Below, in pieces: positions 1 through 63,422 of a DNA stretch of 64,000 nt. The stretch lies in contig NC_092350.1 of assembly GCF_963676685.1 (NCBI RefSeq), positions 10,106,001-10,170,000 of the forward strand. The letters run 5' to 3'. Below the pieces are notes generated by a model. That model did no database searches and was not told the DNA's origin. It saw only the letters and a program-made list of their open reading frames with translations. Numbering within the stretch: the first letter of the stretch is position 1; each line of letters starts with the position of its first letter. The position numbers were made by a program, and so were the translations under genes. This DNA comes from Mytilus edulis (Eukaryota).

Positions 1-2059
1 AGATCACTCAGTACTTACCTTTAAAAATTGTACTTTATCATCTGTAGAGCATGTTCCAATGACATGACATCCAGCTCTCTTGGCCCATTGTACCTACAAA
101 GGGAGATCACTCAGTTCTTACCTTTAAAAATTGTACTTTATCATCTGTAGAGCATGTTCCAATGACATGACATCCAGCTCTATTGGCCCATTGTACCTAC
201 AAAGGGAGATCACTCAGTTCTTACCTTTAAAAATTGTACTTTATCATCTGTAGAGCATGTTCCAATGACATGACATCCAGCTCTCTTGGCCCATTGTACC
301 TACAAAGGGAGATCACTCAGTTCTTACCTTTAAAAATTGTACTTTATCATCTGTAGAGCATGTTCCAATGACATGACATCCAGCTCTCTTGGCCCATTGT
401 ACCTACAAAGGGAGATCACTCAGTACTTACCTTTAAAAATTGTACTTTATCATCTGTAGAGCATGTTCCAATGACATGACATCCAGCTCTCTTGGTCCAG
501 TGTACCTACAAAGGGAGATCACTCAGTTCTTACCTTTAAAAATTGTACTTTATCATCTGTAGAGCATGTTCCAATGACATGACATCCAGCTCTATTGGCC
601 CATTGTACCTACAAAGGGAGATCACTCAGTTCTTACCTTTAAAAATTGTACTTTATCATCTGTAGAGCATGTTCCAATGACATGACATCCAGCTCTCTTG
701 GCCCATTGTACCTACAAAGGGAGATCACTCAGTTCTTACCTTTAAAAATTGTACTTTATCATCTGTAGAGCATGTTCCAATGACATGACATCCAGCTCTC
801 TTGGCCCATTGTACCTACAAAGGGAGATCACTCAGTACTTACCTTTAAAAATTGTACTTTATCATCTGTAGAGCATGTTCCAATGACATGACATCCAGCT
901 CTATTGGCCCAGTGTACCTACAAAGGGAGATCACTCAGTTCTTACCTTTAAAAATTGTACTTTATCATCTGTAGAGCATGTTCCAATGACATGACATCCA
1001 GCTCTCTTGGCCCATTGTACCTACAAAGGGAGATTACTCAGTACTTACCTTAAAAAATTGTACTTTATCATCTGTAGAGCATGTTCCAATGACATGACAT
1101 CCAGCTCTATTGGCCCAGTGTACCTACAAAGGGAGATCACTCAGTTCTTACCTTTAAAAATTGTACTTTATCATCTGTGGAGCATGTTCCAATGACATGA
1201 CATCCAGCTCTCTTGGCCCATTGTACCTACAAAGGGAGATCACTCAGTTCTTACCTTTAAAAATTGTACTTTATCATCTGTAGAGCATGTTCCAATGACA
1301 TGACATCCAGCTCTCTTGGTCCATTGTACCTACAAAGGGAGATCACTCAGTTCTTACCTTTAAAAATTGTACTTTATCATCTGTAGAGCATGTTCCAATG
1401 ACATGACATCCAGCTCTCTTGGCCCATTGTACCTACAAAGGGAGATCACTCAGTTCTTACCTTTAAAAATTGTACTTTATCATCTGTAGAGCATGTTCCA
1501 ATGACATGACATCCAGCTCTCTTGGTCCATTGTACCTATAAAGGGAGATCACTCAGTTCTTACCTTTAAAAATTGTACTTTATCATCTGTAGAGCATGTT
1601 CCATTGACATGACATCCAGCTCTCTTGGTCCATTGTACCTACAAAGGGAGATCACTCAGTTCTTACCTTTAAAAATTGTACTTTATCATCTGTAGAGCAT
1701 GTTCCAATGACATGACATCCAGCTCTCTTGGTCCATTGTACCTACAAAGGGAGATCACTCAGTTCTTACCTTTAAAAATTGTACTTTATCATCTGTAGAG
1801 CATGTTCCAATGACATGACATCCAGCTCTCTTGGCCCATTGTACCTACAAAGGGAGATCACTCAGTTCTTACCCTTAAAAATTGTACTTTATCATCTGTA
1901 GAACATGTTCCAATGACATGACATCCAGCTCTCTTGGTCCATTGTACCTACAAAGGGAGATCACTCAATTCTTACCCTTAAAAATTGTACTTTATCATCT
2001 GTAGAGCATGTTCCAATGACATGACATCCAGCTCTTTTGGCCCATTGTACCTACAAGGG
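1..2059 (-). repeat. 103-bp tandem array, 20 copies in window; each unit = 75-nt PTGR3 exon 7 + 28-nt GT..AG spacer
   Basis: Units start at 1, 104 ... 1958 (exact 103 period); minus-strand spacer gtaagaactgagtgatctccctttgtag. Confidence 0.95.
1976..2050 (-). CDS. PTGR3: PTGR3 exon 7 (first copy in transcript order; gene continues beyond the left edge)
   Basis: cttgtag| VQWAKRAGCHVIGTCSTDDKVQFLR |gtaaga; matches the ZADH2 CHVIGTCS segment. Which of the 20 copies is actually used cannot be seen from sequence. Confidence 0.75.
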
Positions 2060-2708
2060 AGATAACTCTGGTAACAATCACAATCAGTCCTGCACAATAT
2101 TTATATGCAATTATATATTGAATTCCATTGAAAATTTAATATAGCTTTTCTATTATCAGCCTTAGATGGGAAACTTAATAGGTATTGAGTGGTAGGGATG
2201 AGCCTCTGGGATAAGTCAATATCTTTATTTTTGCTAAGATATGATATCGGCAAGAAAGGTAGCTGATTAAATTGTAACTATCTGATTCTACTGTATATGT
2301 CAGACATTTTTTTAATCAATTTTTATTCCATGAAAAAGACTAATCTCAATCTAAAAAAAATCCTATATTTTCTTATAAAGCCAATTAAAATCTTTAATTT
2401 TACTTTTTTTTAAAATAAAATCATGGAACTTTTTTTCCAATAAAATCATGGAGTAAACATCTTTAGTAAAAGATGGTTGCTTTCACTGAGTTTTTAAACA
2501 TTTTTTGTTTATGTTCATGTATAACATCAAACAATACAATTATATTTCTTAACATACTAATAAAAATATTTTAGTTGAATTTATTTGTTTTTGTTCACAA
2601 TTGTGTCAAGCTTTCAGTTTCTGTATTTTAAAGTTTTGACTCTGAATGCATCCCAAATCATTTTTCCACAAAAACATGAGTAAAATGTTATTGTACTAAA
2701 CTACTCAC

Positions 2709-4767: not shown

Positions 4768-5158
4768 AAACTAGAGGCTCTAAAGAGCCTGTGTCGCTCA
4801 CCTTGGTATATATGTGAATATTAAACAAAAGAAACAGATGGATTCATGACAAAATTGTGGTTTGGTGATGGTGATGTGTTTGTACATCTTACTTTACTGA
4901 ACATTCTTGCTGCTTACAATTATCTCTATCTATAATGAACTTGGCCCAATGAAAATTGTTAAAAATTGACTATAAAGGACATTAACTCCTTAGGGGGTCA
5001 ATTGACCATTTCAGTCATGTTGACTTATTTGTAAATCTTACTGTGCTGAACATTATTGCTTTTTACAGGTTATCTCTATCTCTACTAGTATTCAAGATAA
5101 TAACCAAAAACAGCAAAATATCCTTAAAATTACCAATTTAGGGGCAGGTGAGCTAAAA
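4768..5158 (-). mobile_element. Non-autonomous Helentron-like (HINE/DINE-1 type) element, internally deleted
   Basis: Subterminal inverted repeats gctcacct/aggtgagc and terminal hairpin aggctc-taaa-gagcct; same family as 61177-62045 in opposite orientation. Confidence 0.65.
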
Positions 5159-5659
5159 AGAGTGGTACATTCAAATCTTACATTCACAACAGCAAAATAT
5201 ATTCAGCAAATTAGTATCTTCAAATCTAAACAAAGCTTCTTTCATATTTTCTTCGGTAATAAAATAGTTTAGTATGATTTTGTTCTGTATTACAAATGCA
5301 TTATTTTTTTTAAAACACAATTTCAAATTAATTTTATTTCCCAATCATGTAGTTGTAAATGCATGCATCTGATGTTCAATAGTTGTCGTTTGTTGATGTG
5401 GTTCCTAAGTGTTTTTCTTTTTTATATATAGATTAGACCTTTGGTTTTCCCATTTGAATGGTTTTACACTAGTAATTTTTTTATGGGCCCTTTATAGCTT
5501 GCTGTTCTGTGTGAGCCAAGGCTCCGTATTGAAGACCGTACCTTGAACTATAACGGTTTAGTTTTATAAATTGTGATTTGGATGGAGAGTTGTCTCATTG
5601 GCACTCATACCACATCTTCCTATATCTAATTAATACTCAAACTGAAATAACCATTTTAC

Positions 5660-5755
5660 TTTGTATTCACTAAAAGCACCAAATTGTGAATAAGTAACTG
5701 GCTGGCCAATTCTGAGAGAAGCTCCAGGTCCAACGGCTGCCACTTCACCTACAGC
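5660..5755 (-). CDS. PTGR3: PTGR3 exon 3
   Basis: ttgcag| AVGEVAAVGPGASLRIGQPVTYSQFGAFSEYK |gtaaaa; 96 nt, in frame. Confidence 0.9.
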
Positions 5756-6950
5756 CTGCAAAATAACAGGATTATAGTGAAATACAGTCATCACCTGCAG
5801 CCTGGAAAATAAAGGATTACAGTAAAATGTAGTCATCACCTACAGCCTGCAAAATAACAGGATTATAGTGAAATATAGTCATCACCTACAGCCTCTAAAA
5901 TCACAGGATTATAGTGAAATACAGTCATCACCTGCAGCCTGCAAAATAAAGGATTATAGTAAAATGTAGTCATCACCTACAGCCTGCAAAATAACAGGAT
6001 TATAGTGAAATACAGTCATCACCTACAGCCTGCAAAATAACAGGATTATAGTGAAATACAGTCATCACCTACAGCCTGCAAAATAACAGGATTATAGTAA
6101 AATATAGTCATAACATGCAGCCTGGAAAATAACAGGATTATAGTGAAATACAGTCATCACATGCAGCCTGCAAAATAACAGTATTATAGTAAAATATAGT
6201 CATCACATGCAGCCTGGAAAATAACAAGATTATAGTGAAATACAGTCATCACATGCAGCCTGCAAAATAACAGGATTATAGTGAAATACAGTCATCACCT
6301 GCAGCCTGCAAAATAACAGGATTATAGTAAAATATAGTCATCACATGCAGCCTGGAAAATAACAGGATTATAGTGAAATACAGTCATCACCTGCAGCCTG
6401 CAAAATAACAGTATTATAGTAAAATATAGTCATCACATGCAGCCTGGAAAATAACAAGATTATAGTGAAATACAGTCATCACATGCAGCCTGCAAAATAA
6501 CAGGATTATAGTGAAATATCATCACCTACAGCCTGGAAAATAACAGGATTATAGTAAAATATAGTCATCACCTACAGCTTGAAAAATCAAAGAGTATAGT
6601 GAAATACAGTCATCACATGCAGCCTGGAAAATAAAGGATTATAGTAAAATATAGTCATCACCTACAGCTTGAAAAATCAAAGAGTATAGTGAAATACAGT
6701 CATCACATGCAGCCTGGAAAATAAAGGATTATAGTAAAATACAGTCATCACATGCAGCCTGGAAAATAAAGGATTATAGTAAAATATAGTCATCACCTGC
6801 AGCCTGGAAAATAAAAGATTATAGTAAAATGTAGTCATCACCTACAGCTTGAAAAATCAAGGAGTATAGTTAAATATGGTCAACACATAAGGCCTGCAAA
6901 ATAAAGGATTGCAGTAAAATAAAATCATCAGTACAGCCTGAAAAATGAAG
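5746..6950 (-). repeat. 46-bp minisatellite, ~26 copies, made of the PTGR3 exon 3 acceptor + first ~10 exon nt
   Basis: Minus-strand unit atgactgtatttcactataatcctgttattttgcag|gctgtaggtg; copies degrade away from the exon. Confidence 0.93.
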
Positions 6951-7506
6951 GACAATCTAAAAAGTTATTATTATACATGTATATTAAAGTTAACCCAAAA
7001 ATAATCATATAGACTTCAATTCATAGCATTATACACCTTATCACAATTGAGTCCAATCGGGAAAAAACAGTCATTTTAAAAACTACCTGTTTGGGTCAAA
7101 AGTTAAGCAAAAAAAAGGTCATCAGTAAAGAGCTGAGAGAGGAAAAAATTTAGAAAGAGATCTCAAGAAACTTTGATGGAGAATGATCCACTTTTTCAAA
7201 AAAGTATTTTGTTTGAAGTGTTTAGATGGTTTAAACAGGTCTCATCAAAAAGTATCATGAATGGTGCATTGTTTAAACAGGGTCCCAGATAATTTCAACT
7301 CATGAACTGAATGAAAAAGTTGTGTAATTTTAGATCTAACACTGAATGGATGTAGCAATTAGGTGTATCAAACACTAGTTTTTGGTCAGACAATCTTAAA
7401 ATGACAACTCATACATGTATGGCACTTAACAGTTTTTGAAAAGAAAACAAGAGAAAGATATGCTTATTACAACAGTGAACACAAATTTAGTTTTATCTTT
7501 ACAAAC

Positions 7507-7594
7507 CTCAAATCCGCAATCAAAGGGAGGTTTCACAGTTGTATCATATCTGCCTGCAGTGTAGTTTATATCTGATGCATTTATTCCAACAAAT
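7507..7594 (-). CDS. PTGR3: PTGR3 exon 2
   Basis: ttatag| [29 protein letters not shown] |gtttgt; characteristic ZADH2 GINASD..GRY..PF..GFE motif. Confidence 0.92.
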
Positions 7595-8835
7595 CTATAA
7601 ATAAAAAATGTAAAACATGAACATGTGAGGTTCCTGGAACTCAAAATTTTCACTGAAATAACGAAATTGATAGCAGCTTTAATAGATCACTATGAGGTGA
7701 GGGTTTGGGTCATTGTTGAAGGCCATACACTACAGTAAATTAAAGTTGTTAACTTCTATGCCATTTGATCTATGTTGGGGAGTTGTCTCATTGGCAATCA
7801 TACCAAATCTTATTATTTTTATAATCAAGATTAACTTTGTTAACAGTTGTGTAATCTCAATGAACAATCCTTTCATAAAAAAAAATTAAAAAAAAGTATG
7901 ATTGACAATGAGATAATAGTTTATCAGGTTGGGAAGATCTCAAAACATGGTCAATATCCCCATTTATTAATATAATACCTCAAATATGGTCTTACAGTTT
8001 TTTTTGTTTTTTGTTTGGTCCTCTGCTTGAACATGTACAGAATATATTTTTTTTCATCAATTTGGGAATCAGAATATATTTTTTTAGAAAAATACCATAC
8101 CCACTCCTGCCTTTTAAAGTTCAATGATTGTTCTATCTGAACTTATTATTTTGTTTTAGACAAAAATTATATGTAGAACATTCATCCTGGACATGCATGA
8201 ACTATTTGCCACTGGATGTTAAGCAACCAACAATCAATCAAAATTTAGGACATAGTCTTGGTATAAAGCTGGCATTTACGGTAGCGTCTTTCTCATATTA
8301 CATTCAATTTCTTAAATCTTCAATTCTAAAGTTCCGTGTTTTCATGTTTCAGTCAGATTTTTAACACGTGAAGCGCTTAAACGCCATCAATCAAAATTAT
8401 TTAGTCAAAATATTACACTAGAAGGTATGGGGAAAATCTTAATTCAGAATTTTTTTTTTATCCTCTGCTTGATCAGAGTATTTTTTTCTCTCATCAATTT
8501 GGGAATTAAAATATGTTTATAAGAAAATACTAGTACAAAAAATTATGACGTCTAGGAAGGCTATTTTAAATTTTTGCTTTGATACTTTCTTGCCACTTGT
8601 CAAAGCAAAAAAAATACAGTATCCCCTCCTGCCATTTGAACATGTGGAAGTTTAATGATCTTTCCCTAAACATTTTCCATCTGAACTTATTGTTTCATTT
8701 TAGACAAAACTATATGTAGGACATTCAGCCTGAATATGCATGAAATATTTGCCACTGGACATTAAGCAACCAACATTGTTGAACAATCAATCAATATATT
8801 CAACATAGTCTTGGTATAAAGCTGGCTTTTAAGAA

Positions 8836-17013: not shown

Positions 17014-18995
17014 AAGATGTCTGTCTTAATGTCCTATCATTTACATAAGTTATATTTTTCAGACATTGATGTATTTCTGGCAGAGAACAGACATAAGTTT
17101 ATGGTTGATTAACACAGAAGATGTCTGTCTTAATGTCCTATCATTAACATTAGTTATATTTTTCAGACATTGATGTATTTCTGGCAGAGAACAGACATAA
17201 GTTTATGGTTGATTAACACAGAAGATGTCTGTCTTAATGTCCTATCATTAACATTAGTTATATTTTTCAGACATTGATGTATTTCTGGCAGAGAACAGAC
17301 ATAAGTTTATGGTTGATTAACACAGAAGATGTCTGTCTTAATGTCCTATCATTAACATTAGTTATATTTTTCAGACATTGATGTATTTCTGGCAGAGAAC
17401 AGACATAAGTTTATGGTTGATTAACACAGAAGATGTCTGTCTTAATGTCCTATCATTAACATTAGTTATATTTTTCAGACATTGATGTATTTCTGGCAGA
17501 GAACAGACATAAGTTTATGGTTGATTAACACAGAAGATGTCTGTCTTAATGTCCTATCATTAACATTAGTTATATTTTTCAGACATTGATGTATTTCTGG
17601 CAGAGAACAGACATAAGTTTATGGTTGATTAACACAGAAGATGTCTGTCTTAATGTCCTATCATTAACATTAGTTGTAATTTTCAGACATTGATGTATTT
17701 CTGGCAGAGAACAGACATTAGTTTATGGTTGATTAACACAGAAGATGTCTGTCTTACTGTCCTATCATTAACATTAGTTGTATTTTTCAGACATTGATGT
17801 ATTTCTGGCAGAGAACAGACATTAGTTTATGGTGGATTAACACAGAAGATGTCTGTCTTACTGTCCTATCATTAACATTAGTTGTATTTTTCAGACATTG
17901 ATGTATTTCTGGCAGAGAACAGACATAAGTTTATGGTTGATTAACACAGAAGATGTCTGTCTTAATGTCCTATCATTAACATTAGTTGTATTTTTCAGAC
18001 ATTGATGTATTTCTGGCAGAGAACAGACATAAGTTTATGGTTGATTAACACAGAAGATGTCTGTCTTAATGTCCTATCATTAACATTAGTTGTATTTTTC
18101 AGACATTGATGTATTTCTGGCAGAGAACAGACATAAGTTTATGGTTGATTAACACAGAAGATGTCTGTCTTAATGTCCTATCATTAACATTAGTTGTATT
18201 TTTCAGACATTGATGTATTTCTGGCAGAGAACAGACATAAGTTTATGGTCGATTAACACAGAAGATGTCTATCTTACTGTCCTATCATTAACATTAGTTA
18301 TATTTTTCAGACATTGATGTATTTCTGGCAGAGAACAGACATTAGTTTATGGTTGATTAACACAGAAGATGTCTGTCTTAATGTCCTATCATTAACATTA
18401 GTTGTATTTTTCAGACATTGATGTATTTCTGGCAGAGAACAGACATAAGTTTATGGTTGATTAACACAGAAGATGTCTGTCTTAATGTCCTATCATTAAC
18501 ATTAGTTGTAATTTTCAGACATTGATGTATTTCTGGCAGAGAACAGACATAAGTTTATGGTTGATTAACACAGAAGATGTCTGTCTTACTGTCCTATCAT
18601 TAACATTAGTTGTATTTTTCAGACATTGATGTATTTCTGGCAGAGAACAGACATAAGTTTATGGTTGATTAACACAAAAGATGTCTGTCTTAATGTCCTA
18701 TCATTTACATTAGTTGTATTTTTCAGACATTGATGTATTTCTGGCAGAGAACAGACATAAGTTTATGGTTGATTAACACAAAAGATGTCTGTCTTAATGT
18801 CCTATCATTTACATTAGTTGTATTTTTCAGACATTGATGTATTTCTGGCAGAGAACAGACATAAGTTTATGGTTGATTAACACAGAAGATGTCTGTCTTA
18901 ATGTCCTATCATTTACATTAGTTGTATTTTTCAGACATTGATGTATTTCTGGCAGAGAACAGACATTAGTTTATGGTTGATTAACACAGAAGATG
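17014..18995 (+). repeat. 104-bp tandem array, 19 copies of the nurim exon 3 acceptor + first 60 exon nt
   Basis: Exon-start positions 17063, 17167 ... 18935 (exact 104 period); only the last copy continues into the rest of the exon. Confidence 0.95.
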
Positions 18996-22445: not shown

Positions 22446-25400
22446 AGTTTTTACTAATAGAAACATTAACTGTGATCATGACTTTATTTGCATACTATCA
22501 CATGGAATTGCTGCAAGGATTCAATTGGCCAGTGGTTTATTCCATTATGTATGTTCTACCATATGTTAGGTAATTTCTATAAAGATCTGAATAATATCTG
22601 TTAAATTTGGCTGCATGACTCAGGTTATTCAGGGTTAGTATTGTGTTATGATGCTGCTGACTGACATGACATAAACACAGATAAAACACAAATAATTATT
22701 GATTGATTGATGTTTGCTTAACTTTCAGTGACACATATCAATCTTTCCTGTAAAAAATGCTGAGGCTTTTTAAACCATTTATTGATGAAATGCTCATGAT
22801 TGGGAAAGACAATTGATGTTTGTTTTAACTACAATAGTTTAACATTTAAGGATAACCAGTACATAGAACACAAGTTACAAACAAGTTACAAACAGCTAAA
22901 TCTGATACAATGTCCACATCTTTTTTCATCTGCTCTTGTTTCAAATAAGAAAATGATAGAATCCAATACTAAAGTCAAGTTAAGTGTACCGAAATAGCAG
23001 AATGAGGTTTTGAAATAATACAAACCATTATCTTTGGTAGACTGCTAGATTTATTCACAACTTTCTTGGACTGTGGCATATTAATTAATTGTTTGACATG
23101 TTTTCAAGACTATTTCATTGATAACCTCTTAATTTGGTTTATGCCACTTCTCAGTTGTTACGGGACATAAACATGCATATGTAGTGTAACAATTGTTTTT
23201 CAGATGATGCAACTTGAGTACTGAGTAAGGCTCCAACAAATCAATTGAAATTTGCAACTGTTATTTGTTAGGTGCCACTAACCACAGATCAAATTCTAAT
23301 TTGAACAATTCACACTTGTCTTTTTGATAAAGGGGAAATAAAGTCATAGATGCCAGGATTAAAATTTTGTACAGCAAACATGTATTTCCTCTTCAAAAAG
23401 ACTCATCAGTAAAGGCAACAGTAGTATACTAGATTAGGCTGATATATGTATCTTGTATGTAGTTGTGTCATCAGAAGTTCCTAGTTACATACCAGTTTAA
23501 GTGCAAACTACTGTTTTGAAAAACTATTAAAATAATATTGGCTATACTTTGGAGGTATTTCAGATTTTTAATTAGAGCCCAACATATAGAATACAGGAGC
23601 AGTATGGTTTTAACTTTATCTGTCTGTTTGTTCAACATGATTTGGACCAATGTTCACTAGAACAATATACAACCAAGTCAACCTGATACACGTAATGGGA
23701 TTACCTCTTGCAGGTTCAAGTTGTCTCTCCTTGATTGATATCAGGTCATCTACTCTTTAAGTTAAACTTTGGTTAACACAAACTTTTTTCCCTGTCGATC
23801 CGAGTTTGAGGGTAAAGCAATATCTGATGCTAACCAAATTTTAATAAAAGCAACAGTAGTATACCGGTGGTTCAAAAGTCTTAAATCGATAGAGAGAAAG
23901 CAAATTCGGGTTGCAAACCAAAAACCGAGGGAAACACATAAACTATAAGAGGAACACAAAAGAACAACTGGAACACCGAAAAGTGCAACAAGACAAAACG
24001 CCAGCACACATATAAACGAATTTTTTTATAACAACTGCCATACTTCTGACTTGGTACAGGACATTTTAAGAAAAATTGATTGGTTGAATCTGGTTAAGTG
24101 GCATGCCAAACCTCCAGCTTTATGACCATGTTAAAACATATTGCTAAACACGACGTAACAGAAAAACAGCACATACACACGCAAGAATATTCATAACAGA
24201 GAAACGCACATTTAAATACTATAATAGTTGACACAACAAGGAAACAGCAGAACAATATTACACCAAACACAAATAAATCCATGTTGGATGTAAAAAACAC
24301 CAAGACATGCCCTACAGCAATGAAAATTCACATTCAGTATAACAGTCATATATCCGTATAAGCACTCATATACTGATGATTGAAACAGGAGACATCTTAA
24401 TATTCCCAGAAATGAGAGATACTGCTCTATTCTGGTCAAATTGAAAATGAAAACATTTTCTTTTACATTGGGAAAAAGAACTCAACTAAAAGGGCCATAT
24501 TTTACCAAACAGTTTCAAATATAATCGATGATCCTACAAAATTTCAAACAAATTAAAACAATATAATCCTTTTATTAAATAAAAATTCATATACAATCCT
24601 AAAATTGACTTCCTCTTTCATCTCAGACAGTCTGAACCTGCGTAAAGCAGAACAAACTCTATAAAATTGTCAATGTGTCTTTAATTCATAATCATTGTTT
24701 ATAATATTACACATTAATTTATTTTATCTTAATGTTTACATTGGCAGCAAAAAATACATTGTCCTTAGGTAGTTTACATATATATATAACTGTTTAGGGA
24801 CATCAAGGTTGACACATTTATCGAAATATATATAATGATAACCATATCACCATTTAACATTCTAATTCAAGACCCAAACAAAAGTTTTTTTTTAAATGTC
24901 CTGTACCAAGTCAAAAATATGGCCATTGTTATACTATATAGTTCGTTTCTGTGTGTGTTACATTTTAGTGTTGTGTTTATGCTGTGTCGTAGTTCTCCTC
25001 TTATATTTGATGTGTTTCCCTCAGTTTTAGTTTGTAACTCGGATTTGTTTATTTCTCAATCGATTTATGAATTTTGAACAGCGGTATACTACTGTTGCCT
25101 CTATTTGTAGTCTGATAACCCCCCCCCCCCCCCCCAAACCCCTTACACATGTACTCTTAGCATCTATTTTGTACCATAAGCATGAGATGGATTGGGAACG
25201 TGCATAACATGTACATCACGGAGGATTATATTTGTAGATAGCAAATAAAATAGTGATTCCTTTGAAAGTATTGGTATGTCAAAGATACCCGTACACGTCC
25301 ATTCAGTATGGAGATGAAAGCATAGGCAACCTAGCCTGCTGAACATTGGATAATATTTTAACAGAATTATTTATTAAAAATTAAATACACAAAATATATA

Positions 25401-25517
25401 TCTCTGTTTAGAGATGTTCAAATTAAGACTGTGATACTTTTATAAATAGATATGCCGATATCTTTGTTTACAGTAGTAAAGGGCATTTCAGATAGACTTT
25501 ATTCTTATTAATTGAGA

Positions 25518-26573
25518 TAATAAAATTAACGGTACCAATTTTCTTGCACCAGATGCGCATTTCGACAATACATGTCTCTTCAGTGATGCTCGTGGCCAAA
25601 ATATTTGAAATCCAAAGCTTAAATAAAAGATGAAGAGCTATAATCCAAAAGGTCCAAAAAGTATAGCCAAATCCGTGAAAGGAATCAGAGCTTTGCATGA
25701 GGGAGATACATTCCTTAATTTATAATAATTTCTATTATTTTGTAACAGTAAATTTTAATAACACAAAAAATCCGTATTTTCATGCCAGTACCGAAGTACT
25801 GGCTACTGGGGTGGTGATACCCTCGGGGACTAATAGTCCACCAGCAGAGGCATCGACCCAGTGGTAGTAATAAAATTAACGGTACCAATTTTCTTGCACC
25901 AGATGCGCATTTCGACAATACATGTCTCTTCAGTGATGCTCGTGGCCAAAATATTTGAAATCCAAAGCTTAAATAAAAGATGAAGAGCTATAATCCAAAA
26001 GGTCCAAAAAGTATAGCCAAATCCGTGAAAGGAATCAGAGCTTTGCATGAGGGAGATACATTCCTTAATTTATAATAATTTCTATTATTTTGTAACAGTA
26101 AATTTTAATAACACAAAAAATCCGTATTTTCATGCCAGTACCGAAGTACTGGCTACTGGGGTGGTGATACCCTCGGGGACTAATAGTCCACCAGCAGAGG
26201 CATCGACCCAGTGGTAGTAATAAAATTAACGGTACCAATTTTCTTGCACCAGATGCGCATTTCGACAATACATGTCTCTTCAGTGATGCTCGTGGCCAAA
26301 ATATTTGAAATCCAAAGCTTAAATAAAAGATGAAGAGCTATAATCCAAAAGGTCCAAAAAGTATAGCCAAATCCGTGAAAGGAATCAGAGCTTTGCATGA
26401 GGGAGATACATTCCTTAATTTATAATAATTTCTATTATTTTGTAACAGTAAATTTTAATAACACAAAAAATCCGTATTTTCATGCCAGTACCGAAGTACT
26501 GGCTACTGGGGTGGTGATACCCTCGGGGACTAATAGTCCACCAGCAGAGGCATCGACCCAGTGGTAGTAATAA
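25518..26573 (-). mobile_element. Retrozyme: 3 apparently identical tandem 350-bp units, each with a hammerhead ribozyme
   Basis: Exact 350-bp period; minus-strand hammerhead core in each unit. Confidence 0.9.
25546..25589 (-). ncRNA. Minimal type I hammerhead ribozyme (further copies 25896-25939, 26246-26289)
   Basis: GCAUCA-CUGAAGA-GACA(uguau)UGUC-GAAA-UGCGCAUC^UGGUGC: intact core, stem I GCAUCA/UGGUGC, stem II GACA/UGUC, palindromic helix III. Confidence 0.92.
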
Positions 26574-26630
26574 CAGTAGTTAGATAATATTGTGTCAAAA
26601 TAAAGTTTTATTTTTCTGGTGTGAAGTGAA

Positions 26631-28313
26631 ATGGCTTCGTCATCAAGTCTGACTGCACAAATTCACATCTGTGGGTTTTGTAAAGTTGAAAAAATACCTG
26701 AATGGACATGTTTTGATTGCGACCAACCGATATGCTATGAATGTAAAAGATTTCATTTATGGGATTTGAAAAAGAGATATCATAACATTTTGAGGGCTAT
26801 TTCATTGGTCCCGGATAGTAGTTCGAAAACAAAAACAAATCTGAAAGACATCAGTTGTGCAGATCATGTAGATCGCATTGTACTAATTATTGTCTTGAAT
26901 GCAAAACACTTGTTTGTCCAGAATGTTTGTCTGTTAGTTCTTGTCATTTGGCACATAGGAATAAAACTATAGATAAAATACATGAGGAATCCCTGGAAGA
27001 GCTTGTGGTATTAGAGAATCACATAAAACAAAACATTCTGCCCTGTGTCAAAGGAAAACTTGATTCATTAGATGCATGGAAGGATAAACATAAAATGAAG
27101 TTTCAAGAAGAAAAGAAGAAAATTGAAGAACATGCAAATGAGTTGAGGCAGCTAGTAACAAAGTTTGAGGGTACATTGATCGAAGAGTTTGGAAAAACTT
27201 TTGATGCAAATGCAGATGCTATTTCCAGAGAACAGGACAAAGTAAACCAGCTTCAGGAGGAATTGAATGTAAAAATCAAACTGATAAAACAATCAAAGGT
27301 CAAAGACAATATACTACAAATCCAAAAGGATGTTATGTATTTGTCTCCCAATCCTGTAGACTATGACAAACCTTTATTGATACCAAAGGAAACAAAACAA
27401 TTCTCTAAAAGTCAAAAGATTTCAAAAGAATGTGACTTTGGACATCTACTTACAGTTCCTTTGAAAGGAGAACCAGACACTGAAATTAAAGCTTCAAAAT
27501 CGTATGATTTTGAGAAAAACCTTTTTGTTAACCACAGCTCGCTGGCCATATGTAAAGATGGTACAATTTTAGCTTCAGATGAAAATTGTTGTTATGAACT
27601 GAAACCAGATAAAAGCCCAAGATTAATAGGCGGGATGAAAAAAGTTATTGACATGTTTTTTTTAGAGTCAAAGAAGCTTGTATTTGCTGTTGAAAAAAAT
27701 CGTGCCATCCAGGTCAAAAATGAACATGATGAAATCCAAACTTTTTACACATTACCAGATTCAAAAAACTTTGTTCTAGCCCTTTGTGTGAGTAGAGAAG
27801 GACATATTATGATTCTTTATCTAGAATCTACTCCAACATTCGTGATGAACAGTGAATTTTCAAAGATGCATATCAAATGTTTATCGCAAGATGGAGTTTT
27901 AGTGAAAACTATAAAATGTGAAGAGAAAGTTTTATTGAAAAAAGAGTCTTTAATGTCTGGTTTTCTGTACAAATTCAAAATAACAGAGAACATTAATGGA
28001 AATATTTGTGTACCTACTTTTTTCCAAGATGAAGTTAACGTTTTTAGCCAGGATGGGAAGTTAATTCGGAAGGAACAAATAGGGAAACCGATGGATGTAG
28101 AGTCCACATCATTAGGAAGTATCATTGTATTAAGCTTAACTGGCCAGGTTGTTATTCTGAATTCTAATGGAAAGTTTGTGAAAAACTTCGCTCTGAAAGA
28201 TACTCTACATTGTTCACCTATGAACTTTTACAGTTTTTGTCTAAAAAAACCAAGATCTTGTCTTTGTTAGTGAGGGTAAAATGCATATTGTTCAGTTTTA
28301 CAATGAACATTGA
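26631..28313 (+). pseudogene. Intronless TRIM-like gene (2 B-boxes, coiled coil, NHL-like beta-propeller); two 1-nt frameshifts, so a pseudogene or an assembly error
   Basis: B-box1 CGFC..CFDC..CYEC..H..H; B-box2 CADH..[fs ~26879]..YCLEC..CPEC..HLAH; heptad-rich helix; propeller-like C-terminus; second shift at the A7 run 28243-28249. Confidence 0.8.
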
Positions 28314-28827
28314 TACTGATCAGTAGAAGTAATATATTATAGTTAATGATAGTACACAAATATTTTTATAGTTAATCATGAATGAAGTTTCCTTGAATAT
28401 TGCTAAAATGAATATTGTAGACAATGAATTCTGATATAAAACAAATTTGATTTGATCGAATTTAAAAAAAACAAAAAAAAAACAAAGGATTGTTAGTACC
28501 TTGTTATTGTTTTTTGTCTATTCTATAATTTCATTTGATATCATGAACTAAAGTGATGAATAAAAGGAGATTGTGATTATGTGTAAATGAGATAGCAACT
28601 TTACGACCGTCATCAACTTCCACTTCAACCACTGAAGATGTTTCCAAATTGAGTTTGGGACATATCAATGGACCTGTGAGAGGGTTAAAATTTGTTCACT
28701 GCGCCATCAACACCAAATGGCTTTTGCCTCTAGTTGTTTCTCAGTTGTCTTAGAAACCACCTACAAATTCAAACCATACTTGGTTATAATCATCCAAAGG
28801 GGTTGATGTTTCAGTATAAACATAAGG

Positions 28828-48090: not shown

Positions 48091-48229
48091 GTGTTGATCA
48101 AGAAGTAAAATTGAGAAAGGAAATGGGGAATGTGTCAAAGCGACAACAACCCGACCATAGAGCAGACAACAGCCGAACATAACCCGTGTCTTGCCAACAA
48201 CTGTTGTTTTTTTTTTAAAATAAATGAGT

Positions 48230-49440
48230 TTAGTTCCGATGCAAAGACCCTATAAGTGAATTAATATTAAAACCAAAATTTGCAATCTTTAATGACCTGA
48301 CAACAGTATCGTAACTATATCCCTTCTTAATAAGTCTGTTTAAAGGTTTCGTAAGCTTTTGAGGTGAATACTGACATTTTTGTGCTTTGTAAAGAATAAT
48401 ACCATAAAAGATTGGATGTGAAATACCTGAACGTATAAGATGTCTGCATGTTGAGTTATATTTACGAATTATTTCCTTATACCGATGATAAAATTTAGTA
48501 AATGTTTTGACTAGTTTGTGATATCGAAAACCCTGGTGTAATAATTTTTCAGTAATACATAAATTTCTTTCGCTAAAATCTAATACGTTGTTACATACAC
48601 GAGCGAATCGTACAAGTTGAGGTATATAAACACTATAAGATGGTGACAAGGGAACGTCACCATCTAAAAATGAATAATTAATGATAGGAAATGAAAAACC
48701 ATATCTTTTATCATAAATTTTTGTATTAAACTTCCCGTTAATGATATAGATATCAAGATCGAGGAAAGGGCAGTGGTCATTGTTAGTATAAGCTTTATTT
48801 AAAGTAAGTTCAACAAGATAAATTTCTTTAGTATACATACTGAAGTCGTCATTATTGAGAGCCAATTATCATCCAAATATCTAAAAATATTGTTAAATTT
48901 TTGTATCAAATGTTGTTTCGATGGGTCTTTGCTGATTTTAGTCATACATTGTAACTCATAACAATACAAAAACAGGTCCGCAATAAGTGGTGAACAGTTA
49001 GTCCCCATTGGAATTCATATAACTTGACGATATACGGAATCTCCAAGGCAAACAAAGATGTTATCAAGTAAAAATTCAAGCGCATATATAGTATCAAATC
49101 ATGTCCAATTGACATAGTTCTTTTGTTTATTGCTACTAAAAAATGACCTAAAAGAGTTTGAACATATGTACTCGCATTCTGACTTTTTAAATGCCCAGTT
49201 AATTAGGGATGTGATTTTTTTCTTAATAAGAATATGAGGCAAAGTGGTATATATGGTAGAAAAATCAAAACTTTGAACAGATTCAAAATCACCAATATAT
49301 GCATGCAATTTATCAAGTACTTCCAACGAGTTTTTGACACTCCAAAAGTAATTAATTTCACTATTTTTAAAAGCCTTATTTGAACAATTTATTATCAGGT
49401 TTTTTATTGTACCAAATGTACTAGTAAGTAGAATAGACAA
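48230..49440 (-). mobile_element. Penelope-like retroelement RT fragment, frameshifted
   Basis: QSFDFSTIYT, PMGTNCSPLIADLFLY, FRYLDD, FLDL, TKIYDKR..FPIINY..QLVRFARVC motifs. Confidence 0.88.
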
Positions 49441-53827: not shown

Positions 53828-54665
53828 TAAATAAACTCATCATAGATACCAGGACTAAATTGTATATATACGCCAGACGCGCGTTTTGTCTACAAAAGAT
53901 TCATCAGTTACGCTCGAATCCAAAAAAGTTTTTAAAAAAAGCCAAATAAAGTACGAAGTTGAAGAGCATTGAGATCCAAAATTCCTAAAAGTGTTGCAAA
54001 ATACAGCTAAAGTAATCTACGCCTGAGGTAGAAAAGCCTTAGTATTTCAAAAAATTCAAAATTTTGTAAACAGTTAATTTATAAATATAATAATATCAAT
54101 GATAATTCATGTCAGCACAAAAAGTCTGACTACTGGGCTTGTGATACCCTCGGGGAAATAAATCTCCACCAGCAGTGGCATCGACCCAGTGGTTGTAAAT
54201 AAACTCATCATAGATATCAGGACTAAATTGTATATATACGCCAGACGCGCATTTCGTCTACAAAAGACTCATCAGTTACGCTCGAATCCAAAAAAGTTTA
54301 AAAAAAAAAGCCAAATAAAGTACGAAGTTGAAGAGCATTGAGATCCAAAATTCCTAAAAGTGTTGCCAAATACAGCTAAGGTAATCTACGCCTGAGGTAG
54401 AAAAGCCTTAGTATTTCAAAAAATTCAAAATTTTGTAAACAGTTGATTTATAAATATAACAATATCAATGATAATTCATCTCAGCTCAAAAAGTGCTGAC
54501 TACTGGGCTTGTGATACCCTCGGGGAAATATATCTCCACCAGCAGTGGCATCGACCCAGTGGTTGTAAATAAACTCATCATAGATACCAGGACTAAATTT
54601 TATATATACGCCAGACGCGCGTTTCGTATACAAAAGACTCATCAGTTACGCTCGAATCCAAAAAA

Positions 54666-54707
<42 letters not shown>

Positions 54708-54755
54708 CCAAATAAAGTACGAAGTTGAAGAGCATTGAGATAACAATATCAATGA
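53828..54755 (-). mobile_element. Second retrozyme family: ~2.5 tandem ~369-bp units with hammerheads (53870-53914, 54238-54282, 54608-54652)
   Basis: Minus strand CUGAUGA-GUCU..AGAC-GAAA-(C/U)GCGCGUC^UGGCGU; the copy at 53870 has GAAA>AAAA; the third unit has a long poly(A) expansion. Confidence 0.88.
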
Positions 54756-62353: not shown

Positions 62354-62787
62354 GTGAGACTTAGTCTATTGCTAAAATTTCATGACAATTTTCATAATTT
62401 TATTTTTTAAAGTCATATAAAACAACTGACTGGTGAAAAAATAATGTTTATCCAATTCTTGAGTGAGACTTAGTCTATTGCTAAAATTTCATGACAATTT
62501 TCATAATTTTATTTTTTAAAAGTCATATGAAACAAGTGACTGGTGAAAAATAATGTTTATCCAATTCTTGAGTGAGACTTAGTCTATTGCTAAAATTTCA
62601 TGACAATTTTCATAATTTTATTTTTTAAAGTCATATGAAACAAGTGACTGGTGAAAAATAATGTTTATCCAATTCTTGAGTGAGACTTAGTCTATTGCTA
62701 AACTTTCATGACATTTTTTATAATTTTATTTTTTAAAGTCATATGAAACAAGTGACTGGTGAAAAATAATGTTTATCCAATTCTTGA
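62354..62787. repeat. 109-bp tandem repeat, 4 copies, abutting a LINE 5' end
   Basis: Units start at 62354, 62463, 62572, 62680. Confidence 0.9.
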
Positions 62788-63422
62788 ACCAATGCGTGTA
62801 TGTACGAGTAAAGAACTTAAACTGTGGTATTAAGATTGACGACATTGAGTTAAGCATACTACTGTATGCCGATGACATAGCTGTTATTGCGCCGGATGAA
62901 CACAAACTACAGAGAATGCTTAATGAGGTTGCGTCTTGGTGTGATGACTGGAAACTTGAAATTAATCGGTCGAAAACCAAAGTAGTGCATTTTAGAAATC
63001 CTTCGATACTTCGGTCAGACTTTGATTTTGAATGTGGAACTCACAACTTAGAATATATTGACTCATACAAATATTTGGGACTTTGGTTCGATGAGTTCTT
63101 AACACTAGAAAAGGCAGTTACAGAACTTTCTAAATCAGTCAGTAGAGCTTTGGGAGCCCTTTTTGGTAAATTCATAGCGACAGGTGGTATGACCTGGAAC
63201 GTTTATCACAAACTTTATACGACGATGGTAGAACCAGTTTTATTCTATGGTAGTGCTGTTTGGGGATACAAATTCCACAGAGTAATTAACAATGTACAGA
63301 ACAATGCTGCAAAATACTTTCTTGCAGCTGGGAAGCGAACCTCCAACACAGCGGTGCGCGGAGATCTTGGACTAATTAACCTCAATGTCATACGAAGCAA
63401 AAACTATCATGCCTACGTCTAA
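62788..63422 (+). mobile_element. L2/CR1-clade LINE RT fragment
   Basis: ILLYADDIAV, INRSKTKVVHFR, YKYLGL, YGSAVWG, RGDLG. Confidence 0.92.

What the first reader, a model, noticed from the sequence alone, without database searches (positions are those of the whole stretch)
25518..26573. Young, intact hammerhead retrozyme trimer 57 bp upstream of the TRIM start codon
Seen: three apparently identical 350-bp units with perfect hammerhead cores on the minus strand; predicted cleavage after AUC between 25552 and 25551, then every 350 nt. Established: minimal type I hammerheads with palindromic helix III work as dimers in tandem transcripts, and metazoan retrozymes yield circular RNAs; I recall ~350-nt retrozymes being reported in Mytilus (not checked). 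Inference: a recent insertion copied from a circRNA, antisense to the TRIM gene and possibly affecting it.
Basis: partly seen in the sequence, partly recalled or inferred. Interest (0 to 1): 0.7.

Follow-up and report, generated by a model that had tools for sequence, protein, structure and literature searches.

The report
Polymorphic mussel retrozyme with Naiad signal
This is a young, still-polymorphic copy of a known mussel-type repeat whose units each carry a hammerhead self-cutting RNA motif; its copies nearly all end at one fixed base beside an RNA hairpin shared with Naiad jumping genes, which likely copy it, and the neighbouring gene is frameshifted with or without the insertion.

Summary
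Observation confirmed: three identical 350-bp units plus 6 nt, one type I hammerhead per unit on the minus strand, cut site 25552/25551, 57 bp before the ATG. It fits the non-LTR retrozymes described in mussel (PMC7229834). The insertion is young and polymorphic. The empty site occurs in other runs and in two paralogues; the insert is 1053 nt, with ATAA at both ends. 53 of 54 family arrays end at one point 33-34 nt past the cut site, while the other end scatters. That point lies at the foot of a hairpin also found at the start of a hammerhead-less Naiad element, with compensatory pairs. 14 of 15 terminal Naiad copies stop at the same point. A Naiad enzyme likely primes there and reads a circle repeatedly. 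The scan noted the fixed end and Naiad hairpin earlier on other DNA of this genome; I retested both. Two first-reader points weaken. The hammerhead is canonical, and a mussel monomer is published as self-cleaving. The TRIM-like ORF has two frameshifts, apparently on the filled and empty haplotypes alike, so an effect on the gene is probably moot.

The parts
25518..26573 (-). Retrozyme array, 3 x 350 bp + 6 nt; net insertion 1053 nt (25521-26573, placement ambiguous by 4 nt)
25546..25589 (-). Type I hammerhead 1; predicted cut between 25552 and 25551
25896..25939 (-). Type I hammerhead 2; predicted cut 25902/25901
26246..26289 (-). Type I hammerhead 3; predicted cut 26252/26251
25552..25901 (-). 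Predicted 350-nt monomer/circle (a second one at 25902-26251)
   Evidence: fold z -1.89; release is inferred
25518..25551 (-). 33-34-nt tail from the cut site to the fixed 3' end of the family; inferred RT start at 25518/25519
25803..25867 (-). Conserved hairpin just 3' of the fixed end, shared with the 369-bp family and a Naiad element (copies at 26153-26217 and 26503-26567); likely RT recognition signal
25517..25520 (+). Target ATAA, present once in the empty allele and again at 26570-26573 in the filled allele (microhomology or 4-nt duplication; cannot be told apart)
26631..28313 (+). RING-less B-box/coiled-coil TRIM-like gene; this allele is frameshifted near 26877 (1 nt short) and 28243 (1 nt extra) relative to the allele in run X7
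   Evidence: paralogue B-box

Best explanation
This is a young, polymorphic copy of a non-coding mussel-type non-LTR retrozyme whose copies end at one fixed point beside a hairpin shared with Naiad Penelope-like elements, and it was likely inserted by a Naiad enzyme reading a 350-nt RNA circle three times. Steps: (1, published for the mussel family, inferred here) minus-strand transcripts self-cleave every 350 nt and the monomers are ligated into circles. (2, inferred) A Naiad RT/GIY-YIG protein binds the hairpin, nicks AT-rich DNA and primes internally at the hairpin foot, 33-34 nt downstream of the cut/ligation junction. (3, inferred) RT crosses the junction and continues round the circle until it stops at a random point, giving one fixed and one variable end. 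Here it stopped after 3 turns + 3 nt and joined at the target ATAA. (4, shown) The copy is an antisense insertion 57 bp before a TRIM-like ORF that carries two frameshifts; (inferred) it is probably a neutral passenger.
For: Array and hammerheads. Dispersed young family. Empty site: a loose end after 25520 in X4 reads as the right flank from 26574; X1 and X4 branch there; X14 leaves the reference at 25520; X7 joins at 26570. Two paralogues carry AGATAACAG at the homologous spot. Fixed end in 53 of 54 arrays, including 16 of 16 found only with a rotated query; flank match falls to background upstream of unit position 1; the other end is not distinguishable from uniform (KS p=0.083, n=53). The 369-bp sister family has the same fixed end in 22 of 26 distinct arrays. 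Hairpin homologue at the ORF start of Naiad L179: score 51, reached by 0 of 60 shuffles (max 43); 3 pairs changed on both sides. 14 of 15 terminal copies of that Naiad stop at the hairpin foot. Variants shared by all units of an array in 20 of 24 arrays; mean difference within arrays 3.2 versus 6.9 between. Precedent for internal RT initiation in a PLE: PMC11167929 (parts 1-2 of 4 read).
Against: No direct test of cleavage, circles or helper activity. The active monomer hammerhead fold (-3.7 kcal/mol) is less stable than the local MFE (-7.8), and Rfam gave no hit. PMC11167929 found uncleaved RNA to be the main PAc substrate, so linear multimers are a real alternative. The most abundant young Naiad (L137) shares the last 9 nt of the end (AATTTTATT) but no detectable hairpin sequence, so the exact helper family is open. 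The compensatory changes are one event between two lineages, not many independent ones. Searches scored only 40 candidates each, favouring young copies. One array (L066) and one Naiad copy (L229) break the rule.
Confidence: 0.65

Rival explanations
1. Same Naiad-primed internal start, but the template is an uncleaved linear multimer read from a master array; the hammerhead and circles are side products.
For: [quoted passage not shown] The window unit is identical to units of a 6.8-unit array on C10, a possible source.
Against: Arrays carry array-wide private variants in 20 of 24 cases, some up to 10 units long with near-zero within-array difference. This fits repeated reading of one monomer, although a homogeneous master would mimic it. 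Hammerhead stems keep pairing between the two families.
Confidence: 0.2
2. The helper is a different Penelope-like clade (hammerhead-bearing Neptune/Poseidon type), or the retrozyme derives from a pLTR and amplifies locally by unequal crossover, as proposed in bioRxiv 10.64898/2026.07.22.740005.
For: Xenopus retrozymes match pLTRs of PLEs (parts 1-3 of 5 read). Hammerhead-like motifs occur at other GIY-YIG loci of this genome (L170, L185).
Against: Among 50 GIY-YIG loci, the blastn matches looked like neighbouring retrozyme copies, and the only non-retrozyme hairpin homologue above shuffles was the Naiad. The empty site shows the trimer absent in one step; no monomer allele was seen in the 4 runs.
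Confidence: 0.1
3. The insertion is a functional regulatory allele that silences the TRIM-like gene, through 18 upstream ATGs and 5 AATAAA on the sense strand or through antisense RNA.
For: It lies 57 bp before the ATG, in a segment conserved in paralogues, and adds these signals.
Against: The downstream ORF has two frameshifts. In X1 one contig of depth 22.9, about the sum of the filled and empty alleles (15.1 + 10.7), matches it with 0 differences over 26608-28400, so the empty haplotype appears to be broken too. The ribozyme is on the opposite strand.
Confidence: 0.07

Closest known systems
Mytilus galloprovincialis non-LTR retrozymes (Cervera and de la Pena 2020, PMC7229834; parts 1-4 of 6 read; supplement not readable)
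   Same: 350-390-bp low-GC tandem repeats, one type I hammerhead per unit, two related families, thousands of copies, no ORF.
   Different: Identity to the deposited clones could not be checked. The parts read describe no fixed end, no shared hairpin and no named helper. The companion review (PMC7761336, passages) says the repeats show no conserved motif that points to the helper.
Poseidon PLE of Anolis (PAc), internal RT initiation (Frangieh et al. 2024, PMC11167929; parts 1-2 of 4 read)
   Same: RT starts inside the RNA downstream of a hammerhead cut site and needs RNA 3' of the start; AT-rich targets; genomic ends coincide with start sites.
   Different: PAc is autonomous, with a C-terminal endonuclease and two start sites 85+ nt past the cut. 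Here there is one start 33-34 nt past the cut in a non-coding unit.
Naiad Penelope-like elements (Craig et al. 2021, PMC8557442; section 6 and passages read)
   Same: 5' truncation, partial tandems, fixed 3' end. L179 has an N-terminal GIY-YIG, a lengthened C-X9-CxxC linker, DKA and no hammerhead, and shares the hairpin and end register with the retrozyme.
   Different: Naiads encode RT/EN and lack hammerheads; the retrozyme has the reverse. The Naiad hairpin has an extra 24-nt stem.
Retrozymes as non-autonomous PLE derivatives (Li, Clavereau, Pollet, bioRxiv 10.64898/2026.07.22.740005; parts 1-3 of 5 read)
   Same: Argues that PLEs mobilise animal retrozymes.
   Different: Mostly vertebrates; links to pLTRs of Xenopus PLEs; no junction analysis seen in the parts read; proposes local tandem amplification.

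Membership tests
Animal non-LTR retrozyme | Tandem units of 150-450 bp, each with a type I hammerhead | tested here: met
   3 of 3 units
Animal non-LTR retrozyme | Low GC (<45-50%), non-coding | tested here: met
   GC 37.7%; longest stop-free stretch 62 codons (+) and 90 codons (-)
Animal non-LTR retrozyme | Dispersed copies from dimers to long multimers | tested here: met
   54 arrays on many contigs, up to about 26 units
Animal non-LTR retrozyme | No LTR/PBS/PPT | tested here: inconclusive
   No LTR structure in the arrays; PBS and PPT were not searched
Animal non-LTR retrozyme | Target-site duplication, when present, longer than 4 bp | tested here: inconclusive
   Only a 4-nt ATAA shared at both ends here; no consistent TSD seen in the junctions of 54 arrays
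Animal non-LTR retrozyme | Self-cleavage in vitro | not testable with these tools
   Core intact; published for a mussel clone
Animal non-LTR retrozyme | Expressed as monomeric circular RNA | not testable with these tools
   Only assembled contigs were available
M. galloprovincialis retrozyme families | Sequence identity to the deposited clones | not tested
   Supplement unreadable; the host is inferred to be a mussel from the repeat type and 14 large contigs (chromosome number recalled)
Minimal (obligate-dimer) PLE hammerhead | Helix III absent or reduced to core bases | tested here: not met
   Helix I 6 bp, helix II 4 bp, helix III 2 bp + palindromic tetraloop = 'canonical' in PMC4209133 (passages)
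Naiad PLE (candidate helper L179) | N-terminal GIY-YIG, lengthened CxxC linker, DKA motif, RT, no hammerhead | tested here: met
   Pfam GIY-YIG at aa 179-269 above cut-off; RVT_1 weak (E 0.021); motifs; no sense-strand hammerhead core in L179
Naiad-dependent non-autonomous element | Shares the RT recognition signal and end register with the autonomous element | tested here: met
Naiad-dependent non-autonomous element | Trans-mobilisation by Naiad protein | not testable with these tools
   needs an in vitro TPRT assay

The most novel reading that the evidence does not exclude
Mussel retrozyme circles are parasites of hammerhead-less Naiad retroelements: they carry the Naiad 5' hairpin as a hijack signal, RT starts at its foot, and the ribozyme serves only to make a circle that turns this internal start into multi-unit insertions. 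This names the helper, the signal and the start base for animal retrozyme mobility.
Probability: 0.55. Interest if true: 0.68.

Novelty: new member of a known kind. Interest (0 to 1): 0.47.

Why it matters
The locus itself is an ordinary member of a described family. Its value lies in the footprint. Which enzyme mobilises animal retrozymes, and how it is primed, is stated as open in PMC7229834, PMC7761336 and the 2026 preprint. A base-precise end, a shared hairpin and a candidate Naiad ORF make that question testable with the assay of PMC11167929. A linear monomer primed at this point would yield only 33 nt of cDNA, so the geometry itself demands a circle, a multimer or a template jump. The filled/empty polymorphism shows recent activity. 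I found no paper stating the Naiad link (searches; one search returned only PMC8557442 and the preprint). The scan's own earlier notes did report it.

Tried and rejected
Rfam scan: 0 hits. Pfam family PF26215 is not in the library. The dominant young Naiad (L137-L140, L107-L136) gave no blastn match to the retrozyme apart from neighbouring retrozyme copies, so it is not shown to be the helper. Hammerhead-bearing GIY-YIG loci: no match beyond adjacent retrozyme copies in 50 loci. TSD search in 54 arrays found nothing consistent. A 6-bp TSD (TAATAA) was rejected because the empty site has ATAA once. RNA evidence: retrozyme-family contigs occur in RNA runs X15 and X17, but the laid piece is shared between families and DNA carry-over cannot be excluded, so I did not use it as proof of expression. 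The RNA contigs do not reach the 5' end of the TRIM-like gene, so intron versus 5' UTR versus promoter is unresolved; candidate splice acceptors are not conserved in the paralogues. Summed contig depth was not used as copy number. The whole-monomer fold is only mildly better than shuffles (z -1.89), and the isolated hammerhead is no better (z 0.21). Rows left out: one locus (C1:114.06 Mb) and the 48 unlisted matches were not fetched; five loci holding retrozyme copies were removed from the shuffle control; L066 was omitted from the uniformity test. A look-up of earlier findings by sequence returned nothing.

Full report
Observation. The array is exactly as described. Period-350 identity runs from 25518 to 26573, the three units are identical and GC is 37.7%. 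Each unit has a type I hammerhead on the minus strand with a 6-bp helix I, 4-bp helix II and helix III UGCGCA; the cut falls between 25552 and 25551. The ATG is 57 nt away. Rfam did not detect the motif at gathering threshold.

Known kind. PMC7229834 (parts 1-4 of 6 read) describes about 5000 type I hammerheads of two families in 350-390-bp repeats of M. galloprovincialis. A cloned repeat cleaved at about 0.1/min and circRNAs were abundant. The window's genome holds many near-identical copies: 128 matches from 40 of 602 candidates scored. A second family of 369 bp has 4722 candidates and one array in this window. I infer a mussel host. Identity to the published clones was not checked because the supplement was unreadable.

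Ribozyme type. The motif is 'canonical' in the sense of PMC4209133 (passages), not minimal. Helix III is palindromic in 163 of 182 distinct-context motifs in the fetched DNA, with four different palindromes, so dimer folding is possible (duplex -10.5 kcal/mol). The monomer active fold (-3.7) is less stable than the local MFE (-7.8). Published data say mussel and most invertebrate motifs cleave as monomers (PMC7229834; PMC7761336 passages). Dimer folding is therefore optional rather than required.

Age and polymorphism. In one search, run X4 has a contig leaving the reference after 25520 with letters that match the right flank from 26574. X1 and X4 show two alleles and a branch at 25520, with one branch entering the repeat. 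X14 leaves the reference at 25520. X7 joins the right flank at 26570. Two paralogous genes on C12 carry AGATAACAG at the same position before their ATG, so the empty state is ancestral. The insert is 1053 nt (3 units + 3 nt) with no target loss, and ATAA appears at both ends. It also matches the element in register, so microhomology and a 4-nt duplication cannot be told apart. The unit belongs to a young sub-lineage shared with arrays on C10 and C1.

Insertion footprint. I examined 54 arrays: 38 from the first query and 16 found only with a query rotated by 175 nt. 53 begin at unit position 345-2 on the window's plus strand. The automatic count was 52; L057 was mis-scored by an older neighbour, and one search confirmed L066 as the only exception. 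Upstream of position 1 the flanks fall to background, with T at position 1 in 36 of 53. The other end is scattered (KS versus uniform p=0.083) and no TSD pattern emerged. On the ribozyme strand this is a fixed 3' end 33-34 nt past the cut site plus 5' truncation. The 369-bp family does the same at the homologous base in 22 of 26 distinct arrays (30 loci, five of them from one array). In 20 of 24 multi-unit arrays all units share variants against the family majority, and mean differences are 3.2 within versus 6.9 between arrays. Only the best 40 candidates per search were scored, so the sample favours young copies.

The helper. The two families are most alike in a hairpin just 3' of the fixed end (z -2.2 and -2.5). 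Earlier notes of this scan on the same genome pointed to a Naiad link, which I then tested. A local alignment against PLE loci found a homologue at the ORF start of L179. L179 is a 1053-aa frame with an N-terminal GIY-YIG, C-X9-CxxC, DKA and RT motifs and no sense-strand hammerhead, which are the Naiad diagnostics of PMC8557442 section 6. The score of 51 was reached by 0 of 60 shuffles (max 43) over 223 kb. Of 21 consensus pairs, 3 change on both sides, all between the retrozyme and Naiad lineages. Among 40 scored copies of that Naiad end, 25 run through the hairpin and 15 stop earlier. 14 of the 15 stop at its foot, in the same register as the retrozyme. Against a simple assignment, the most abundant young Naiad (L137) ends in the same 9 nt but shows no hairpin sequence match.

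Mechanism. Shown: the array, the empty site, the fixed end, and the shared hairpin and register. Inferred: a Naiad protein binds the hairpin, nicks AT-rich DNA and starts cDNA internally, as PAc does in vitro (PMC11167929, parts 1-2 of 4). A cleaved linear monomer would then give only 33 nt, so RT must cross the junction on a circle, on an uncleaved multimer, or by a template jump. Array-wide private variants favour one monomer read repeatedly. The PAc result that uncleaved RNA is the main substrate keeps the multimer rival alive.

The neighbour. The gene is RING-less and B-box/coiled-coil TRIM-like, with weak B-box hits; an intact 579-aa paralogue passes zf-B_box. Relative to run X7 the window's allele lacks 1 nt near 26877 and has 1 extra nt at 28243; the RNA contigs of X15 and X17 also lack the latter. 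The X7-type frame would run 26631-28313 with no stop arising from the listed substitutions. In X1 a single contig of depth 22.9, about the sum of its two alleles, matches the frameshifted version without differences over 26608-28400. The empty haplotype therefore seems broken too. This rests on contig depths of one run of unknown type and needs phasing. The insert adds 18 ATG and 5 AATAAA to the sense strand, but its place in the transcript is unknown.

Verdict. This is a real, young, polymorphic member of a known family, and the gene-effect idea is weak. The worthwhile part is the fixed end with the Naiad hairpin. It is not in the papers I found, the scan had already noted it elsewhere in this genome, and I reproduced it here.

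Noticed in passing
window 53828-54741: Second retrozyme array, 369-bp family, two minus-strand hammerheads (one with a helix II mismatch), an expanded A-run at 54669-54706; same fixed end and hairpin.
   Followed up: yes
window 48175-49420 (minus): Decayed 5'-truncated Naiad-type RT fragment; its family is extremely abundant and young (42096 candidates, 4031-bp tandem unit).
   Followed up: partly
L137 minus strand 4901-7615: The Naiad EN (424 aa) and RT (480 aa) frames are in the same frame, separated by one stop codon in both tandem copies; possibly a selenocysteine codon as in PMC8557442. Codon not checked.
   Followed up: no
window 25356-25361: Other alleles (X1, X4, X14) carry about 314 extra letters here, and X7 also leaves the reference at 25356: a second indel polymorphism upstream of the same gene.
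   Followed up: no
L142 minus strand 1431-1526: A paralogous TRIM-like gene on C12 also has a retrozyme fragment about 700 bp upstream of its ATG.
   Followed up: no
L139 minus strand ~8420-8500: Another variant of the hairpin with a different closing stem (CTTGACAA/TTGTCAAG) lies beside a Naiad array.
   Followed up: no
L170, L185; L168, L172, L184: Two other hammerhead-like motifs recur near GIY-YIG loci, one with a GCGC helix III; candidates for hammerhead-bearing PLE families.
   Followed up: no
L066 (C6:59.65 Mb): The only array that does not start at the fixed end (unit position 296 to 310); its flanks look partly complementary.
   Followed up: no
window 1-2068, 17014-18995, 5745-6946: Young minisatellite arrays of 103, 104 and 46 bp; no hammerhead core found in them.
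   Followed up: no
window 62763-63422: 219-aa stop-free frame resembling a LINE-type RT fragment (by eye).
   Followed up: no
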